Source: a virus (Duplodnaviria > Caudoviricetes). From it: a stretch of 64,000 bases of DNA. Of the stretch, positions 15,344-53,612 are shown one piece after another. The position numbers and the translations under genes were made by a program. Numbering within the stretch: position 1 is the first letter of the stretch; each line of letters starts with the position of its first letter. Location: IMG/VR virus record IMGVR_UViG_3300037067_004891, positions 256,001 to 320,000 of that record. The stretch is one strand, 5' to 3'. The notes beneath the pieces were generated by a model. That model saw only the letters and a program-made list of their open reading frames with translations. It was not told where the DNA came from and did not search any database.

Positions 15344-17896
15344 ATGATAAGAACCGAAGTATTAAATAAAGAAAAACTATCTAATATCATATATAGTTAT
15401 GGTGAACCGTATGACTTTGATAAGAAAATAAAATATTTTCATTATTTTGATATTCGGTCATCACATTTGGACTATGATCCCAATGAAAAATATAAAGCCA
15501 GAACATATTTTGTCACCTTATTTGATGATGATGATATCATCGGATTAGCTAAATTACAAGAAAATCCATATAATCAACAAGGTTTATTTTGGATACAGTA
15601 CATTTCCATCGATGATAAACACCAAGGAATGAGATATTCAAAATATATTATTGATAGAATGATAAAATTTTGCAAAGAAAATAAATTTAAATTGAAAACA
15701 TCTGGTTATTCAACAAAAGGGTGGGAACGTCTAAGGGAATATCTTCATTTATCTGCGGGTGCAAATGATGTGGAATTAATTGATACCAAAGAAAAACCAG
15801 AATACGAAAACCACACTTCAATAGACACATTAGTTAATACAAAAGTCATAGATTTTAATAAAAAACCGTTGATTGTATATCATGGAACAAATAATAAATT
15901 CGATATTTTCGATATAAATATGATAAACACAAATGAGAAGAGTGGTGATTATATTGGTTCGGGAATATATTTCACACGTTATAAAGACACTGCATTAAAA
16001 TACGCAAAACAGGCGGTGAAAAAAGGTGGGGGTTTAGTAAATATTATATCGGCATATTTAAATATCGAACATCCATTAATTATAAATAACACATCAGATG
16101 CTCAAAAATTGAGAGATTTATTTGGCGGGGAATTTAATTATTTTTCTATTTTGGATGACAATCCAAATCTTATTAAAGATGAATTAATAAAATTGGGTTA
16201 CGATGGTTTAATAGACAATATGTATAATCAATATGCAGTATTTGAACCAAGTCAAATTAAAATAATTGATAATTCTGTATCATTACAAAATGAAAATATT
16301 GTTAGTTTTTCAAATTTCATTGTAAATGAAGAACATGACTACACCAAAGAATCCATTTTAAAATTTATAAAAGATAGAAATCTTTATTTAATGGATGGAA
16401 AATATTTGGAATTATATCATGGAACAGACCCAGCATCATATAGAAAAATAGAAAAATCTGGTAAATTAAAATCTGGTACATGGTTCGGGATAGATTATGA
16501 AACATCAAGAAGATATGGTTTAATGAGATTACACAGAGGTGAACCAGTGGTAATGAAGATTTATGTTGATATTGATTCCTTATATATATCAAGTGAATAT
16601 TTTATTGCTAAACACGATTTAAAGATGAACTTGATGTATGGTTCTGGTTCTAATGTTTATGAAAATAAAAATCCAAATATAAAATGCTATATTTGCGAGA
16701 ATAATAATACAAAAGAAGAAATGTTCATACCTGAAGATATATTAGAGTTTCACGATTTATTTACTCAGGCTGGTAAAAAACTTTTTTTAGTTGGGGGTTG
16801 TATCCGTGATTATATAATGGGTAAAACACCACATGATTATGATTTAGTAACTGATGCATCACCAGATGAGACTAAACAAATTTTAAAAAATTACAGAACA
16901 AATTTACAGGGCGCACATTTTGGTGTAATAAGAGTGTATACCGAAGATGAACCAAAGGGATATGAAGTAGCTTCTTACAGGCGTGATATCTCAAAAGGAC
17001 GCTCAAATAAAGGCGATGATCAAAAAGTTGAAATCGGTTCTCATATCACTATTAAAGATGATGTTTTAAGAAGGGACATAACTCAGAATGCGTTATTTTA
17101 TGATATTGGTAAAAAAGAAATAATAGATTTAGTTGGTGGTATAGAAGATATTAAAAATGGTATTATACGAGCTGTCGGTAATCCAATGGAACGATTCAAT
17201 GAAGACCGTCTTAGAATTTTGAGAGTTTTTCGTTTTTCAGCCCGTTCACGTTTTAAAATTGATGATGAAACAGCGAATGCTATAAAAAAGGACAACCGTC
17301 TGAACGGTTTATCACCTGAAGAAGATGTTTCCCAAGAAAGAATACTGGAAGAAATTTTTAAAATATGGGAATATGCATCCGAAAAAAATGATTTACCTGC
17401 TTGGAAACTATATCTCAAATATCTGACTGAGTTTAAAATGTGGAATCAGATGTTTAAAAACATGCTTATTAATGAGGATGTGATTAACATTGATAGTTTA
17501 GATTTAATTCAGATGTATACATATTTATTTCTGGATAATACTCCAGATACTGAATTTAATAAACGTTTGATTAGAACATTTAAATTTTCATCGGATAATG
17601 CTAATATAATTTGTTTTCTATTAACATTTTATAATAATATCAATGATGTCGATAAGGTGTTTGATATGAAAAAGAAACAAAACCAATTTGATATTGACCC
17701 GAATATTATAAAAGAATTTTCTGATATACATAAACTGGATAAAAAATTTACTGATAAATTCATTGAATATGATTTAACAGTATCAGGACAAGAATTAATG
17801 GATTCTGGACTAAAAGGAAATGAAATTGGTATAGAACAAAGGAAGCAAGAAAAAGAAATTTTTCAAAATATGATTAACGAATCTTTTGATTTTTGA
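15344..17896 (+). CDS. cca: Polyvalent fusion: GNAT + two ART-like domains + CCA-adding enzyme (class II tRNA nucleotidyltransferase)
   Basis: YISIDDKHQGMRY; LIVYHGT..GIYFT..GYDGL..VFEPSQIK; LYHGT; LVGGCIRD, DYDLVT, RRDITQNAL, EDRLRILR. Confidence 0.85.
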   Translation: MIRTEVLNKEKLSNIIYSYGEPYDFDKKIKYFHYFDIRSSHLDYDPNEKYKARTYFVTLFDDDDIIGLAKLQENPYNQQGLFWIQYISIDDKHQGMRYSKYIIDRMIKFCKENKFKLKTSGYSTKGWERLREYLHLSAGANDVELIDTKEKPEYENHTSIDTLVNTKVIDFNKKPLIVYHGTNNKFDIFDINMINTNEKSGDYIGSGIYFTRYKDTALKYAKQAVKKGGGLVNIISAYLNIEHPLIINNTSDAQKLRDLFGGEFNYFSILDDNPNLIKDELIKLGYDGLIDNMYNQYAVFEPSQIKIIDNSVSLQNENIVSFSNFIVNEEHDYTKESILKFIKDRNLYLMDGKYLELYHGTDPASYRKIEKSGKLKSGTWFGIDYETSRRYGLMRLHRGEPVVMKIYVDIDSLYISSEYFIAKHDLKMNLMYGSGSNVYENKNPNIKCYICENNNTKEEMFIPEDILEFHDLFTQAGKKLFLVGGCIRDYIMGKTPHDYDLVTDASPDETKQILKNYRTNLQGAHFGVIRVYTEDEPKGYEVASYRRDISKGRSNKGDDQKVEIGSHITIKDDVLRRDITQNALFYDIGKKEIIDLVGGIEDIKNGIIRAVGNPMERFNEDRLRILRVFRFSARSRFKIDDETANAIKKDNRLNGLSPEEDVSQERILEEIFKIWEYASEKNDLPAWKLYLKYLTEFKMWNQMFKNMLINEDVINIDSLDLIQMYTYLFLDNTPDTEFNKRLIRTFKFSSDNANIICFLLTFYNNINDVDKVFDMKKKQNQFDIDPNIIKEFSDIHKLDKKFTDKFIEYDLTVSGQELMDSGLKGNEIGIEQRKQEKEIFQNMINESFDF

Positions 17897-32766: not shown

Positions 32767-33237
32767 TCATTTATAATTTTCATCTTGAATAATACCATAT
32801 TTATGAAAATATCTCAGTGGTCTCCATTTATGTCCATTAACATAAAACCCCCATTTATGATAAGGACGACTACAAAGTAATATAGTCCATGCACCACCTT
32901 TAGGAATGTCAAGATAATGCTTTTGTTCAGCTTTCATCCTACGAGGTTTCCACGCAACCGCTTTATATCTTACTGGGTTTCCGTTTTCATCGGGCATCAC
33001 ATTATAATAATAACCCTTTATAATAATTGATATTAAATCACAGGAATGGTCATGAAAAAATCTTCTGTCATCTGATCTGAGCCAATGATGAAGTCTGATA
33101 GTAAAACCAAAAAATATTAAAGACCAGCGATATAAATAAGGACACTCTGGACGACCCAAAGCCTCTTTTATTCTTATCTGGAAAATCTTTCCAAATAGAT
33201 GTTTTTCGTGGTCTTTATATACTATTAGTTTTTTCAT
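32767..33237 (-). CDS. Cupin-like protein
   Basis: LHHWLRSDD..HDHS, GYY, distal H, WTI, WGF. Confidence 0.6.
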   Translation of the reverse strand: MKKLIVYKDHEKHLFGKIFQIRIKEALGRPECPYLYRWSLIFFGFTIRLHHWLRSDDRRFFHDHSCDLISIIIKGYYYNVMPDENGNPVRYKAVAWKPRRMKAEQKHYLDIPKGGAWTILLCSRPYHKWGFYVNGHKWRPLRYFHKYGIIQDENYK

Positions 33238-33239
33238 TT

Positions 33240-33833
33240 TTAATTAATCTTCTTCATTTTTAATTTTTTCATTAATATAATAGTTTCTTCTTTTAATTTG
33301 TTGAATTTTTCTAATTCTTCTTCTGTTAAATTAAAATTAGATAAATCTATTTTTTGAGAAAATAATATATTCTCAATATCTGCTTGGTCTTGTTTACTAA
33401 ATCTACCTAATTTAGAAAAAATTAAACCTTCTGGTGATGCAACACAAATGTTATTATTTTTAATGGCGGTTTTAAAAATCTGTTTTGCTAAATCATCTCT
33501 AAGATTTATGGATTGTGGTGTAATAACTTCAACTTCAACATGAGTCTTATTATGCTGAAATGCACCATTCCGAGTTTTTTTAAATCCCTTTAATGATAAT
33601 GGTATATCATTTTTTGTTAAAAATAACATATCAACATCTTGTGTCATTCGAGGTGTAACATAATATGATAATGCAATGCCACCAATTAATACACAGTTAT
33701 CCACATTAAGTGTTATCCAATCTTCTAAAGCTTTAATAACTTCAACATGAACTATTGATTCAAATAATGTTCTATTACCATCATTTGGTGTTTTCATTTT
33801 ATCAATCCTAAATTTATTATATTCAGTTATCAT
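33240..33833 (-). CDS. Minimal nucleotidyltransferase (Pol-beta fold)
   Basis: LIGGIAL..PRMTQDVD, EGLIFSK..R..QD..DI. Confidence 0.75.
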   Translation of the reverse strand: MITEYNKFRIDKMKTPNDGNRTLFESIVHVEVIKALEDWITLNVDNCVLIGGIALSYYVTPRMTQDVDMLFLTKNDIPLSLKGFKKTRNGAFQHNKTHVEVEVITPQSINLRDDLAKQIFKTAIKNNNICVASPEGLIFSKLGRFSKQDQADIENILFSQKIDLSNFNLTEEELEKFNKLKEETIILMKKLKMKKIN

Positions 33834-33843
33834 ATGGGTTTTT

Positions 33844-34389
33844 TCATTTAATAATTTTAATAATCATAAATGGTTGTGACTTATATTCCTCAACAAAAGA
33901 ATAATCAGTCAACATTTTCAGATAATAATTTTTATCTTCTAACCATTTTCTGAATCGAACCTGATGTTCCGAATTCTTAATTGTCCATGTTGGGTGTGTC
34001 AAAGAAACTATACTACCACCGACCTTCAAAAATTTATACATATGCATGATGTGTTCAACATCAATATTATCCTTAAAATTCGGACAAGCAATAATATAAT
34101 CATAACGTTTTTCAGTGACAAATTTAAAAAAATCCTCACCAACAACATTATAACCTTTTTGTTTTAATTGATTTCTTAATTCCTGATTTAATTCGATACA
34201 ATCGATGTTAAAGTCGTAAAATGTATTATATTGGATTATACCATCGATTAAATCACCAGAACCAGCAGAGGGTTCTAAAATAGATATACAGTCAAAACCA
34301 CCAGAAAAACGACATTCGTTGAGAATTTGCTTCACAACATTTATACTCGTTTTTCTGATGGTTTTTTCCATATCTTTATTATTAAACAT
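33844..34389 (-). CDS. SAM-dependent methyltransferase (amino-MTase-like; NPPF replaced by CPNF)
   Basis: ILEPSAGSG, DCIELN, EDF, YDYIIACPNF, LKVGG. Confidence 0.75.
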   Translation of the reverse strand: MFNNKDMEKTIRKTSINVVKQILNECRFSGGFDCISILEPSAGSGDLIDGIIQYNTFYDFNIDCIELNQELRNQLKQKGYNVVGEDFFKFVTEKRYDYIIACPNFKDNIDVEHIMHMYKFLKVGGSIVSLTHPTWTIKNSEHQVRFRKWLEDKNYYLKMLTDYSFVEEYKSQPFMIIKIIK

Positions 34390-34449
34390 TTAGTCAATCA
34401 TTTGATTGTGCAGTAATCACCACGAGCAGGTAGTTTAACTTTGATTACT

Positions 34450-34637
34450 TCAGTTTGGGACGAGTCGAACATCCGACCTCACACAAGTAACATCTGAAAT
34501 AACCACCTTACATATTCTGGGATTTGTCCGTGTCAATTACTCACCAACTCCACCCTTAATAATATAATTAGGCTATTTCATCTGTCCAATCCGCTAAGAC
34601 TGATGTGTGCGCTCTGAACCAACTGAGCTACAAACCG
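34450..34637 (-). tRNA. tRNA-like gene with a 120-nt insert replacing the anticodon loop (intron-containing tRNA or tRNA-scaffolded ncRNA); no encoded CCA
   Basis: Acceptor CGGTTTG/CAAACTG, D arm GCTC-AGTTGGTTCA-GAGC, stem CACAC/GTGTG, AGGTC, T arm GGATG-TTCGACT-CGTCC. Confidence 0.8.
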
Positions 34638-34753
34638 TTTTTACAAAATTTAAAAGAACTTTATTTTTTGTTATTGTTACGTAAAGTAATTTTTAAAGTT
34701 TCAAAAATAATCATTAAAATATTATAAAAAAATTATTTAACATATTTTAATAA

Positions 34754-35107
34754 TTATTCGAAATAAACTCTATCATTCCATACCACACTTCTGTGTTTAC
34801 ATTTAAGACCAGAATATAAACATCTTGGAATTTCATCATCTCTTGTAAAAGTCAATAATCTCATCGGATTATCTGCATATTCACCACACTTTGAACAATG
34901 AACACCAGATAATATTACACCAGATGCATCTTTACGACCATCTTTTAATACAATCCAACAACTATTATCACCTTCATAATATGTAGTATAATATACATTT
35001 ATATCATGTTTCCCATCCAATGACTTTTCGGTTGCTTTATGGTTTGTTTTAGATGGGTCTGGTGTAGTTAGGAATAATAAAAAAAATATACTTATAATAA
35101 TTTTCAT
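34754..35107 (-). CDS. Small secreted/membrane Cys-rich protein
   Basis: Signal-like N-terminus, CxxC. Confidence 0.5.
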   Translation of the reverse strand: MKIIISIFFLLFLTTPDPSKTNHKATEKSLDGKHDINVYYTTYYEGDNSCWIVLKDGRKDASGVILSGVHCSKCGEYADNPMRLLTFTRDDEIPRCLYSGLKCKHRSVVWNDRVYFE

Positions 35108-53306: not shown

Positions 53307-53612
53307 GTCAACTACCCCTTGGTTAAAGACCAAGGGGCTTGAACCGTGAGGGTTAAGAGTAATTAGTTGATTAGGTGGCTTTTAAAAATTAAAATTAATT
53401 AATTTTAAGTGCAGAAGTTTAAAGGAAAGTTAAAGAACATACCAAGAAATGCTTCACAAGTTTCTTGCTCTATAAGTTCACAGTTAAACAAAGAAGAAAT
53501 TCTTAGTGCTGTGAGTGGGTGCAAAGCCTTCGGCTTTGACACCAGACTGACTTTAAACAACACCGAAGTGAATGAACGTCAAACAAAGAACAGACAGGTC
53601 TTACCGACATAT
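53307..53612 (+). ncRNA. IscB omega-RNA scaffold (guide supplied by the 5' flank)
   Basis: ccccttgg/ccaagggg hairpin, tcaacta/tagttga pairing, agaaa/tttct stem; lies upstream of the PLMP-like motif; 3' boundary approximate. Confidence 0.7.

What the first reader, a model, noticed from the sequence alone, without database searches (positions are those of the whole stretch)
34450..34637. tRNA scaffold carrying a 120-nt structured RNA instead of an anticodon loop
Seen: intact acceptor, D, anticodon and T stems (Ile-like body), but 34485-34604 replaces the 7-nt loop. The insert folds into a long rod (tgaaatagcc/ggttatttca, ggg/ccc, apical gttggt/attgac) plus a small gtct/ggac hairpin. It is too short for a self-splicing group I intron. 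I see no clear bulge-helix-bulge, and no simple excision restores a canonical YU-NNN-RN loop. CCA is not encoded, but the phage has a CCA enzyme. Inference: either a non-canonical tRNA intron, or a natural tRNA-scaffolded ncRNA that uses tRNA processing for stability, for example as a decoy for anticodon nucleases or tRNA sensors.
Basis: partly seen in the sequence, partly recalled or inferred. Interest (0 to 1): 0.78.

Follow-up and report, generated by a model that had tools for sequence, protein, structure and literature searches.

The report
Valine-tRNA-shaped phage RNA with structured insert
A giant bacteriophage encodes a complete valine-type tRNA body whose anticodon loop is interrupted by a conserved 120-base folded RNA domain and whose 3' end is cut by a built-in ribozyme. 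The RNA belongs to an undescribed family that keeps the features needed to be charged with valine but not those needed to read codons.

Summary
On the minus strand, 34637-34450 is a full tRNA cloverleaf with a 120-nt insert (34604-34485). The insert folds as a three-way junction: a small hairpin plus a roughly 98-nt rod. In six relatives 95.8% of cells pair and 25 of 56 pairs show compensatory changes, against 4-7 in slid controls.

The body is valine-type, not Ile-like. Its D arm and variable loop equal those of the phage's own tRNA-Val(UAC).

Fifteen insert-bearing relatives, most just upstream of the same small methyltransferase gene, all keep C1-G72, A73, A35 and C36. U33, N34 and a purine at 37 are not kept, so in most members (12 of 15) no simple excision gives a canonical loop. 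A model of the insert finds a shared apical module in two other insert types.

No group I core, bulge-helix-bulge motif or splicing endonuclease was found. RtcB ligase is encoded in all three large genomes.

My reading: most likely (about 0.45) a non-decoding, probably valine-accepting tRNA-shaped RNA that keeps its insert. A protein-spliced intron is the main rival (about 0.35).

The scan has noted similar tRNA-shaped phage RNAs on other DNA. Lak-megaphage "enigmatic tRNA introns" are the closest published case.

The parts
34649..34681 (-). Conserved upstream motif (CGTAA ... AGTTCTTTTAAA) 12-44 nt before the tRNA 5' end. It is a probable phage promoter or transcription-start region for the tRNA-methyltransferase unit.
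   Evidence: The RGTTCTTT / AGTTCATT motif stands 10-18 nt upstream of C1 in the window, L001, L002, L005, L007, L009, L010, L012 and L013. Its exact form is at 34649-34660. The generic sigma-70 scan was uninformative in this 26% GC DNA. Promoter function is inferred, not shown.
34605..34637 (-). 5' part of the tRNA body: acceptor 5' strand (34637-34631), U8-A9, D arm (34628-34611), G26 and the anticodon-stem 5' strand CACAC (34609-34605).
   Evidence: The D arm is identical to that of the phage's tRNA-Val(UAC).
34587..34604 (-). Junction nucleotides AU (34604-34603) and small hairpin Pa, CAGUC-UUAGCG-GAUUG (34602-34587).
   Evidence: The hairpin is kept in all relatives. Its loop is UUCG in L002, GAAA in L014 and AAUA in L012, so it acts as a structural cap.
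34489..34586 (-). Rod domain. It consists of the closing helix GACA/UGUU, a 2x2 purine loop (GA/GA), the 10-bp helix UGAAAUAGCC/GGUUAUUUCA, further internal loops and an apical hairpin.
   Evidence: Fold z = -4.5. Helices 5, 7 and 8 carry 8, 3 and 4 pairs with compensatory changes.
34515..34560 (-). Conserved apical module inside the rod: AUUAA-[GGG]-UGGA-hairpin (loop AGUAAUUGA)-AAAU-[CCC]-AGAA.
   Evidence: The unpaired letters are kept in the W, W2, L014 and L007 insert types. Covariance model R1, built from the W type, finds the L014 insert (E 0.016) and the L007 module (E 0.059). The second insert type shares GGG..UGG.AG..hairpin..AAA-CCC-A(A)GAA by eye.
34485..34488 (-). Single-stranded tail ACUU: A35, C36 and positions 37-38 of the tRNA numbering.
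   Evidence: A35 and C36 are invariant in 15 of 15 relatives, always two nucleotides before the 3' strand of the anticodon stem.
34450..34484 (-). 3' part of the tRNA body: anticodon-stem 3' strand GUGUG, variable loop AGGUC, T arm, acceptor 3' strand and discriminator A73 (34450). CCA is not encoded.
34382..34449 (-). HDV-like (theta-type) self-cleaving ribozyme. Its predicted cleavage site lies between A73 (34450) and ribozyme nucleotide 1 (34449).
   Evidence: RF02682 scores 32.2 bits, E 4.5e-4 for the region and 6.4e-5 for the genome, below the gathering score of 44. P1 (7 bp), P2 (6 bp), P3, P4 and the J4/2 cytosine are all present in the cmscan alignment. Near-identical copies occupy the same place in L009 and L099. 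The context matches Kienbeck et al. 2024 (PMC10879173).
33844..34371 (-). Co-oriented 175-aa SAM methyltransferase of the N6-adenine (gamma-class catalytic domain) type. Its real start is probably the second ATG, at 34371.
   Evidence: Homologues start MEKT.... Pfam hits are weak (MTS, DREV). The model has pLDDT 87.5. The best folds are the catalytic domains of M.BseCI, M.TaqI and CamA, TMq about 0.7. An insert-bearing tRNA lies upstream of this gene in 16 of the 17 distinct loci whose methyltransferase is at least 43% identical.
33240..33833 (-). DUF6036 / AbiEii-like nucleotidyltransferase. It is present in the window but is not a conserved member of the unit.
   Evidence: PF19502 E 2e-11, PF08843 E 1.5e-4. 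It is absent from this position in L005, L006, L009, L010 and L012.
32767..33237 (-). Conserved 156-aa cupin-fold metalloprotein (RLHHW..SDD.R.FHDH...H). It follows the methyltransferase in most loci.
   Evidence: Alignment A9. Model pLDDT 82. The best folds are cupins such as HppE, oxalate decarboxylase and ergothioneine dioxygenase.
15344..17896 (+). 850-aa fusion protein with a class II (CCA-adding / poly(A) polymerase) nucleotidyltransferase head domain. It is the candidate enzyme for adding CCA to A73.
   Evidence: PF01743 E 5.7e-32, together with ART-PolyVal and GNAT domains.

Best explanation
This is a functional gene for a tRNA-Val-derived RNA, not a pseudogene.

Maturation, as I infer it. 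The RNA is transcribed from its own conserved upstream motif, as the first element of a tRNA-(ribozyme)-methyltransferase-cupin unit. RNase P makes the 5' end at C1. In this phage the abutting HDV-like theta ribozyme cuts after A73 and makes the 3' end. The 2',3'-cyclic phosphate is then removed, and CCA is added by the phage or host nucleotidyltransferase.

What the insert does. I think the 120-nt domain most likely stays in the mature RNA. It sits on the 5' side of the anticodon as a three-way junction of the anticodon stem, a capping hairpin and a roughly 98-nt rod with a conserved apical module. A35 and C36 are left single-stranded at their normal distance from the stem. Such an RNA cannot enter the ribosomal decoding site. 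It does keep the recognised valyl-tRNA synthetase identity set (A35, C36, A73) on a full L-shaped body, so it is probably charged with valine. It would then use the rod as a binding surface for a partner that is still unknown. The co-transcribed N6-adenine-type methyltransferase and the cupin are the obvious candidates.

Shown: structure, conservation, ribozyme context and synteny.
Inferred: expression, retention of the insert, valylation and the partner.
For: (1) The structure is maintained by selection. 95.8% of cells pair and 25 of 56 pairs have compensatory changes, against 4-7 in slid controls and 0 of 500 shuffles. The acceptor and T stems co-vary too.

(2) The pattern in 15 relatives is C1-G72 15/15, A73 15/15, A35 15/15, C36 15/15 and U38 14/15. 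Position 33 is U9/A4/G1/C1, position 34 is U8/A6/G1 and position 37 is U9/A6. By established knowledge of E. coli and T. thermophilus ValRS, A35, C36 and A73 are the main identity elements and position 34 is not read. The features that decoding needs (U33, purine 37) are not under selection. In 12 of the 15 members no excision yields a canonical loop.

(3) The genome already has a canonical tRNA-Val(UAC) with the same D arm, so this copy is not needed for decoding.

(4) The unpaired letters of the apical module are conserved across insert types. Model R1 hits L014 at E 0.016 and L007 at E 0.059. This fits a working domain rather than a spacer.

(5) No self-splicing core, bulge-helix-bulge motif or splicing endonuclease was found.

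(6) A dedicated 3'-end ribozyme is present in three phages. A CCA-type enzyme is encoded in the window.

(7) The tRNA-methyltransferase adjacency persists while the flanking genes change.
Against: - There are no RNA data. Retention of the insert and charging are both untested.
- Insert sequences differ strongly between lineages (79-145 nt, at least four types), while the tRNA body and insertion site are constant. That is also the signature of an intron.
- Intron-less alleles prove true insertions in other megaphage tRNAs (Devoto 2019).
- RtcB, the ligase used for tRNA splicing elsewhere, is encoded in all three large genomes.
- Members L012 and L016c do carry an intact canonical 7-nt loop next to the insert.
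- No function for a valylated non-decoding RNA in a phage is known.
- Synteny with the methyltransferase could be inherited gene order within one phage lineage. The methyltransferase tree backbone is unresolved.
Confidence: 0.45

Rival explanations
1. The insert is a protein-dependent tRNA intron. An unidentified endonuclease, from the phage or the host, recognises the three-way junction and removes it. The halves are then joined by the phage RtcB (2',3'-cyclic phosphate plus 5'-OH) or another ligase. The product is a second tRNA-Val (UAC here, AAC or GAC in relatives) with an unusual loop.
For: - The tRNA body is complete.
- The 3' half of the anticodon loop keeps exact spacing in 15 of 15 relatives.
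- The insertion site is constant while the inserts diverge.
- There is precedent: Lak megaphage tRNA introns have intron-less alleles (Table S6).
- RtcB is present in G000, G001 and G002.
- L012 has the canonical loop CUAACAA next to the insert.
- In the window type, the second nucleotide after the stem is U in all six sequences, so AU/UU/GU + UACUU gives U33.
Against: - Position 37 would be U in 9 of 15 relatives and position 33 would not be U in 6 of 15. No single excision rule fits all members.
- A34 is common, which is unusual for bacterial-type tRNAs.
- There is no EndA-type endonuclease and no bulge-helix-bulge motif.
- No intron-less allele was found in IMG/VR.
- The genome already has tRNA-Val(UAC).
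- The conserved loop letters of the apical module exceed what a passive intron needs.
Confidence: 0.35
2. The tRNA-shaped RNA has no function in trans. It is a cis-acting processing or stability module at the 5' end of the methyltransferase mRNA. The tRNA plus ribozyme defines the mRNA 5' end, as in tRNA punctuation, or mimics the substrate of the enzyme for autoregulation.
For: - The tRNA always stands directly before the methyltransferase start: 16 nt in L001, and 11 nt after the ribozyme in the window.
- No terminator-like site lies between them.
- Ribozyme cleavage would leave a structured 5'-OH leader on the mRNA.
Against: - A simple processing signal would not need a full ValRS identity set, a conserved apical module or a rod of about 98 nt.
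- In L002, L007 and L015 other genes or several hundred bases separate the tRNA from the methyltransferase.
Confidence: 0.08
3. The insert is a new small self-splicing or self-cleaving ribozyme intron. It would either splice itself or cut both junctions, with RtcB sealing the exons.
For: - Loop nucleotides in the rod are conserved.
- The phage already uses a small ribozyme for the 3' end.
- Products of small ribozymes, a cyclic phosphate and a 5'-OH, are RtcB substrates (established chemistry; RtcB found).
Against: - No Rfam ribozyme or intron family reaches E <= 10 on the insert, or E <= 1 on four related loci.
- At 120 nt it is far below known group I sizes.
- A 5' U.G pair is possible, but no guanosine precedes a splice point that would give a 7-nt loop, except in L001.
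- The junction strands are too short for a hammerhead core.
- Junction sequences are not conserved between insert types.
Confidence: 0.07
4. It is a decaying tRNA gene disrupted by a selfish or junk insertion, such as a miniature IS element, and has no function.
For: - The genome carries IS200/IS605-type elements. A HEARO RNA lies at 53307-53577.
- L001 has two A.C mismatches in the acceptor stem.
Against: - Compensatory changes occur in every helix of the body and the insert.
- The element is conserved over methyltransferase divergence down to about 54% identity for the same insert type.
- A ribozyme is placed exactly at A73.
- There are no transposon ends and no copies elsewhere. Pattern scans find only orthologous sites.
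Confidence: 0.03

Closest known systems
'Enigmatic' introns in tRNA genes of Lak megaphages (Devoto et al. 2019, Nat Microbiol, PMC6784885, Table S6)
   Same: - They are roughly 80-115-nt structured inserts in the anticodon loops of tRNA genes of AT-rich (about 26% GC) phages over 500 kb.
- They have no Rfam match.
- They begin with a small hairpin followed by a long-range closing helix.
- Their removal mechanism is unknown.
   Different: - Lak inserts lie 3' of the anticodon (36/37). After removal they restore canonical loops, and intron-less alleles exist.
- Lak inserts contain a T-arm-like GTTCGAAT hairpin or a whole nested tRNA.
- They occur in Tyr, Phe, Gly and Thr tRNAs.
- Here the insert is 5' of the anticodon of a Val paralogue, has no T-arm mimic and has a different conserved apical module. 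Most members cannot regain a canonical loop.
tRNA-associated theta (minimal HDV-like) ribozymes of gut phages (Kienbeck et al. 2024, Nat Commun, PMC10879173)
   Same: - The HDV-like fold has its cleavage site directly at the tRNA 3' end.
- The tRNA lacks an encoded CCA.
- The phage encodes a CCA-type nucleotidyltransferase.
   Different: - The paper does not mention intron- or insert-bearing tRNAs (0 occurrences of 'intron'). It emphasises suppressor tRNAs in recoded phages.
- This genome shows no stop-codon recoding.
- The associated RNA is a Val-type RNA with a 120-nt insert.
- The match to RF02682 is below Rfam's gathering score.
Bacteriophage T4 species 1 and species 2 stable RNAs (rnaC, rnaD; NC_000866 70908-71171)
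   Same: They are phage-encoded, stable, tRNA-related RNAs of unknown function that cannot decode. rnaC has a canonical T arm (CCGGG-UUCGAAU-CCCGG) and an acceptor-like helix around a structured interior.
   Different: - rnaC lacks a regular D arm and anticodon stem, and lies inside the tRNA cluster.
- No sequence similarity was found (model R1 found nothing on L101).
- The present RNA is a complete cloverleaf with Val identity nucleotides, and it stands alone before a methyltransferase gene.
Valine-accepting tRNA-like structures of plant RNA viruses (e.g. TYMV) and tmRNA
   Same: Both are viral or cellular RNAs that are aminoacylated through retained identity elements without acting as ordinary decoders. 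This is a working analogy only, from established knowledge.
   Different: - TYMV's structure is a pseudoknotted 3' end of a genomic RNA.
- tmRNA is alanine-specific, lacks an anticodon stem and carries a tag reading frame.
- No conserved reading frame exists in this insert.
- Charging is untested here.
Group I introns in bacterial and phage tRNA anticodon loops
   Same: Both interrupt the anticodon loop of a bacterial-type tRNA gene.
   Different: The insert is about half the minimal size. It has no P3-P9 core and no Rfam hit. No omega-G is compatible with a 7-nt loop.

Membership tests
Canonical decoding tRNA (tRNA-Val) | Cloverleaf with acceptor, D, anticodon and T stems, plus the conserved elbow nucleotides (U8, A14, G18-G19, T-loop UUCRA) | tested here: met
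   Read directly from the sequence. ARAGORN in intron mode calls it. Covariation is present in the acceptor, anticodon and T stems. The D arm and variable loop are identical to those of the phage's tRNA-Val(UAC).
Canonical decoding tRNA (tRNA-Val) | 7-nt anticodon loop with U33 and a purine at 37, before or after a simple excision | tested here: not met
   All eight possible excisions of the window give U37. Across 15 relatives position 33 is U in only 9 and position 37 is a purine in only 6. RF00005 and default ARAGORN do not detect it.
Canonical decoding tRNA (tRNA-Val) | ValRS identity elements A35, C36 and A73 | tested here: met
   All three are invariant in 15 of 15 relatives. Actual charging is not testable with these tools.
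Group I self-splicing intron | Catalytic core P3-P9 (at least about 200 nt), a U.G pair at the 5' splice site and omega-G before the 3' exon | tested here: not met
   The insert is 120 nt. No RF00028 or other intron hit appears at E <= 10 or on relatives. A U2.G19 pair is possible, but omega-G would give an 8-nt loop except in L001 (sequence).
Archaeal/eukaryal bulge-helix-bulge tRNA intron | Two 3-nt bulges flanking a 4-bp helix, and an EndA-type endonuclease available | tested here: not met
   The 4-bp helix GACA/UGUU is flanked by a symmetric 2x2 GA/GA loop and the three-way junction, not by opposed 3-nt bulges. PF01974 is absent from G000, G001 and G002. The host enzyme set is unknown.
HDV-like / theta ribozyme | Nested double-pseudoknot fold (P1, P1.1, P2, P3, P4) with a cytosine in J4/2 | tested here: inconclusive
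   The cmscan alignment to RF02682 covers model positions 1-74. P1 has 7 bp, P2 6 bp (UUAAAC/GUUUAA), P3 3 bp and P4 5 bp, and the consensus J4/2 C is present. The score is 32.2 bits against a gathering score of 44; E is 4.5e-4 for the region and 6.4e-5 for the genome. The three copies are too alike to show covariation.
HDV-like / theta ribozyme | Cleavage site within +/-1 nt of a phage tRNA 3' end, and a tRNA without encoded CCA | tested here: met
   Ribozyme nucleotide 1 is 34449 and A73 is 34450. The criterion is taken from Kienbeck 2024.
HDV-like / theta ribozyme | Self-scission in vitro | not testable with these tools
   This needs a transcription and cleavage assay.
Lak-megaphage tRNA introns (Devoto 2019) | Insert 3' of the anticodon (36/37) that restores a canonical loop when removed, and a T-arm-like hairpin inside a closing helix | tested here: not met
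   Here the insert is 5' of A35-C36, with no GTTCGAAT-type hairpin in the rod. The shared features are the 5' capping hairpin and the closing helix.
tmRNA / bacterial Y RNA (YrlA) | Rfam or ARAGORN tmRNA detection with a tag reading frame, or a permuted tRNA-like module with a Ro-binding stem | tested here: not met
   ARAGORN finds no tmRNA and Rfam has no hit. The ends lie in the acceptor stem, and the AUG-AAA-UAG frame is not conserved in L002.

The most novel reading that the evidence does not exclude
The RNA is a valine-charged, non-decoding tRNA-shaped cofactor. Its rod, through the conserved apical module, recruits or guides the co-transcribed methyltransferase and the cupin. The methyltransferase is an N6-adenine-type enzyme with no target-recognition domain. 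This would be a phage RNA-protein machine for nucleic-acid or small-molecule modification that uses an aminoacyl-RNA or an RNA specificity subunit.
Probability: 0.15. Interest if true: 0.9.

Novelty: new variant of a known kind. Interest (0 to 1): 0.66.

Why it matters
- Bacteria and their viruses are thought to have only self-splicing tRNA introns. Megaphage tRNA inserts have been called enigmatic since 2019.
- This family gives a sharply defined test case: one isolated gene with strong covariation, a ribozyme-defined 3' end and a conserved gene partner.
- It also shows a diagnostic conservation pattern, in which charging identity is kept and decoding features are lost.
- Either outcome would be new. 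One is a protein-dependent tRNA splicing route in a bacterial virus, probably using RtcB. The other is a natural tRNA-scaffolded, possibly aminoacylated RNA with a function outside translation.
- It also extends theta ribozymes to non-suppressor, insert-bearing tRNA-like RNAs in a phage that uses the standard genetic code.

Tried and rejected
- **Rfam.** Gathering thresholds on the whole window gave only HEARO at 53307-53577. E-value mode on 34200-34900 gave nothing on the insert. Four related loci gave nothing at E <= 1.
- **Group I, bulge-helix-bulge and hammerhead or hairpin cores.** I rejected these on size, junction lengths, lack of hits and absence of EndA. The motifs CAGAUGA and CAGA resemble box C/D or hammerhead letters. 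However, they form a symmetric 2x2 loop, not a kink-turn or a hammerhead core, and the 3' GA becomes AA in L002 and L009.
- **Similarity searches.** blastn of the region against 50,697 phage records gave no match. Exact or degenerate pattern scans of IMG/VR found only the two orthologous megaphages. The one metagenome scan added one new variant (L099) and two repeats.
- **Intron-less allele.** A search for an allele with the same stems found none.
- **Stop-codon recoding.** There is no gain in ORF coverage with TAG or TGA read as sense.
- **Peptide in the insert.** AUG-AAA-UAG is not conserved.
- **Promoter scan.** The sigma-70 scan was uninformative.
- **Neighbouring proteins.** Sequence searches for the methyltransferase and cupin against PDB and NCBIfam gave nothing useful. 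The folds give only a generic N6-adenine methyltransferase domain and a generic cupin.
- **Phage ValRS.** It is not conserved.
- **RNase P resemblance.** GAGGAAAGUCUGGAC in L005 resembles RNase P CR-I, but only GGAGARGAAAG is conserved. I treat it as unexplained.
- **Cassette swapping of inserts.** This is not supported. Insert types follow the methyltransferase clades on an unresolved tree.
Full report
**What is there**

The window is bases 256001-320000 of a 421,673-bp IMG/VR virus record. The record is 25.7% GC and estimated 59% complete. It uses the standard code.

On the minus strand, 34637-34450 reads as a full tRNA:
- acceptor CGGUUUG/CAAACUG, with C1-G72 and G2.U71
- U8-A9
- D arm GCUC-AGUUGGUUCA-GAGC
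- G26
- anticodon stem CACAC/GUGUG
- variable loop AGGUC
- T arm GGAUG-UUCGACU-CGUCC
- discriminator A73, with no CCA

Between the two strands of the anticodon stem lie 120 nt (34604-34485) instead of 7.

Default ARAGORN and Rfam's tRNA model miss the gene. ARAGORN in intron mode calls it at exactly these coordinates as tRNA-Val(tac) with a 113-nt intron. The insert folds far better than shuffles (-37.5 kcal/mol, z = -4.5).

**Structure and selection**

Orthologues were found in two complete megaphages of 640 and 676 kb (L001, L002). More came from contigs encoding the neighbouring methyltransferase (L009, L013, L015) and from one metagenome scan (L099).

The consensus structure is the cloverleaf plus a three-way junction:
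- the anticodon stem
- two junction nucleotides
- a capping hairpin (CAGUC/GAUUG)
- a rod of about 98 nt, closed by GACA/UGUU, then a 2x2 purine loop, a 10-bp helix, three internal loops and an apical hairpin
- a 4-nt single-stranded tail, ACUU

On six sequences 95.8% of cells pair and 25 of 56 pairs carry compensatory changes. With partners slid by 1-3 columns the figures are 36-49% and 4-7 pairs. No shuffle of 500 reaches the observed values. The tRNA stems co-vary as well; for example the acceptor reads CGGUUUG/CAAACUG in the window and CGGGCGA/UCGCUUG in L002. The RNA is therefore under selection as a whole. The 'decayed tRNA' reading is close to excluded.

**Identity of the body**

The D arm (UAGCUCAGUUGGUUCAGAGC) and the variable loop (AGGUC) are identical to those of the phage's own canonical tRNA-Val(UAC), at genome 56600-56675. 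This is a valine-type paralogue, and the genome does not need it to read GUN codons.

**The 3' end**

One base after A73 begins a 68-nt match to Rfam's HDV-like ribozyme of F. prausnitzii. It spans 34449-34382 and scores 32.2 bits, below the gathering score of 44. E is 4.5e-4 for the region and 6.4e-5 genome-wide. The match has P1 (7 bp), P2 (UUAAAC/GUUUAA), P3, P4 and the J4/2 cytosine.

This is the context of the 'theta ribozymes' described by Kienbeck et al. 2024. There the cleavage site sits directly at the 3' end of phage tRNAs that lack CCA, in phages enriched for CCA-adding enzymes. Near-identical ribozymes follow the orthologous RNA in L009 and L099. L001, L002 and the other relatives lack it, and in them C follows A73.

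A class II nucleotidyltransferase head domain is encoded at 15344-17896.

The ribozyme ends 11 nt before the probable true start of the next gene. That start is the ATG at 34371, where homologues begin MEKT. The in-frame ATG at 34389, inside the ribozyme, is probably not used.

**A wider family**

The next gene encodes a 175-aa SAM methyltransferase. Its model (pLDDT 87.5) best matches the catalytic domain of gamma-class N6-adenine DNA methyltransferases (M.BseCI, M.TaqI, CamA; TMq about 0.7), and it has no target-recognition domain.

It has 54 close homologues. I looked at 17 distinct loci whose methyltransferase is at least 43% identical. In 16 of them an insert-bearing tRNA gene lies upstream. 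It is usually within 20-60 nt of the methyltransferase gene, and the outer flanking genes differ. More distant homologues (40% identity or less) in ordinary-sized phages have no such tRNA.

The inserts are 79-145 nt and fall into several types:
- the window type (also L013 and L015)
- a second type with GGCAGAGUGU-hairpin-AACCCAAGAAACUAYGGAGARGAAAG (L005, L006, L010, L012)
- L014
- L007
- Ile-like tRNAs with the insert 3' of a GAU anticodon (L016, L017, L018)

The types follow the methyltransferase clades on a poorly resolved tree, so there is no evidence of cassette exchange.

A covariance model of the window-type insert finds the L014 insert (E 0.016) and the apical part of the L007 insert (E 0.059). 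The shared module is AUUAA-[3 bp]-UGGA-hairpin-AAAU-[3 bp]-AGAA. The capping hairpin carries UUCG, GAAA or AAUA loops in different members, so it is structural.

**The key pattern**

In 15 relatives the nucleotides before the 3' strand of the anticodon stem always read N-A-C-N-N. N-A-C is UAC in 8, AAC in 6 and GAC in 1.

| Feature | Count in 15 relatives |
|---|---|
| A35 | 15/15 |
| C36 | 15/15 |
| A73 | 15/15 |
| C1-G72 | 15/15 |
| Position 33 | U 9, A 4, G 1, C 1 |
| Position 34 | U 8, A 6, G 1 |
| Position 37 | U 9, A 6 |

From established work on E. coli and T. thermophilus ValRS, A35, C36 and A73 are the main valine identity elements and position 34 is not contacted. U33 and a purine at 37 are near-universal in decoding tRNAs.

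The family therefore conserves what a synthetase reads and not what the ribosome needs. No single excision rule yields canonical loops, although L012 (CUAACAA) and L016c do have an intact loop beside the insert.

**How the insert might be handled**

- There is no group I core: the insert is too short, has no Rfam hit, and omega-G would give an 8-nt loop.
- There is no bulge-helix-bulge motif.
- No EndA-type endonuclease is present in the three large genomes.
- All three encode RtcB (E about 1e-50). RtcB joins 2',3'-cyclic phosphate and 5'-OH ends.
- Devoto et al. 2019 reported 'enigmatic' introns in Lak megaphage tRNAs, some with intron-less alleles. Their Table S6 sequences share the 5' hairpin and closing helix. 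They lie 3' of the anticodon, restore canonical loops and contain T-arm-like hairpins, so they are a different family.
- No intron-less allele of the present gene was found.

**Verdict**

I rank the explanations as follows:

| Explanation | Confidence |
|---|---|
| Non-decoding, probably valine-accepting tRNA-shaped RNA that keeps its rod domain and works with an unknown partner; the co-transcribed methyltransferase and the conserved cupin are candidates | 0.45 |
| Protein-dependent, RtcB-sealed intron of a second tRNA-Val | 0.35 |
| Purely cis-acting leader of the methyltransferase mRNA | 0.08 |
| New small ribozyme intron | 0.07 |
| Junk | 0.03 |

Earlier notes of this scan describe comparable tRNA-shaped phage RNAs in other genomes. 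They pointed me to T4 rnaC and rnaD. I checked that rnaC has a T arm and an acceptor-like helix but no similarity to this RNA. I found no paper describing this Val-type family or its link to a theta ribozyme and a methyltransferase.

Noticed in passing
window 53307-53577 (+): HEARO RNA (RF02033, 103 bits, E 3.6e-20), the OMEGA-type RNA of IscB/HNH elements. It was the only gathering-level Rfam hit in the window.
   Followed up: no
window 34371-34389 (-): The ORF finder starts the methyltransferase at ATG 34389, inside the ribozyme's P2 strand. Homologues begin MEKT, which points to ATG 34371, 11 nt after the ribozyme.
   Followed up: partly
L006 2083-2240 and L010 about 2360-2490: In the second insert type, a conserved non-coding element of about 130-150 nt follows the tRNA. 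It is closed by CGUUCU..GGUGG / CC.C.GAGAACG. It stands where the window has its ribozyme and has no Rfam match. It might be another 3'-processing or regulatory RNA.
   Followed up: no
L006 1625-1840 and 1876-2083: Two different insert-bearing tRNA-like genes stand in tandem before one methyltransferase gene. The first has a degenerate T stem and a long variable region.
   Followed up: partly
L016 1920-2430: A run of unusual tRNAs lies before the methyltransferase homologue: a CUA-anticodon (amber-reading) tRNA, an Ile-like tRNA with a 72-nt insert after an intact CUGAUAC loop, and an Ile(UAU) tRNA with an insert of about 65 nt in the variable/T-stem region.
   Followed up: no
L018 940-1300: The locus holds several tRNA-related mini-elements. 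There are acceptor/T-arm minihelices ending in encoded ACCA, a 57-nt 'armless' tRNA-like RNA, and a tRNA-like RNA whose D and anticodon region is replaced by about 90 nt.
   Followed up: no
L005 about 2430-2447: The insert contains GGAGAGGAAAGUCUGGAC, 15 of 18 identical to the RNase P RNA CR-I/P4 strand as I recall it from E. coli M1 RNA. Only GGAGARGAAAG is conserved in the other members, so the resemblance may be chance.
   Followed up: partly
L001 2803-2990: The orthologue in the complete 640-kb phage has two A.C mismatches in its acceptor stem and G instead of U before UACUU. It may be a weakened copy or may rely on protonated A.C pairs.
   Followed up: no
G000 C1 98542-99708 (-), outside the window: RtcB RNA ligase gene (PF01139, E 1.2e-50). 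It is also present in both related complete megaphages. A PF09414 RNA ligase is found only in G002.
   Followed up: partly
G000 C1 57029-57115, outside the window: ARAGORN calls this tRNA differently depending on mode: Leu(taa) with a 15-nt 'intron' in intron mode, and Tyr(gta) with a long variable arm in default mode.
   Followed up: no
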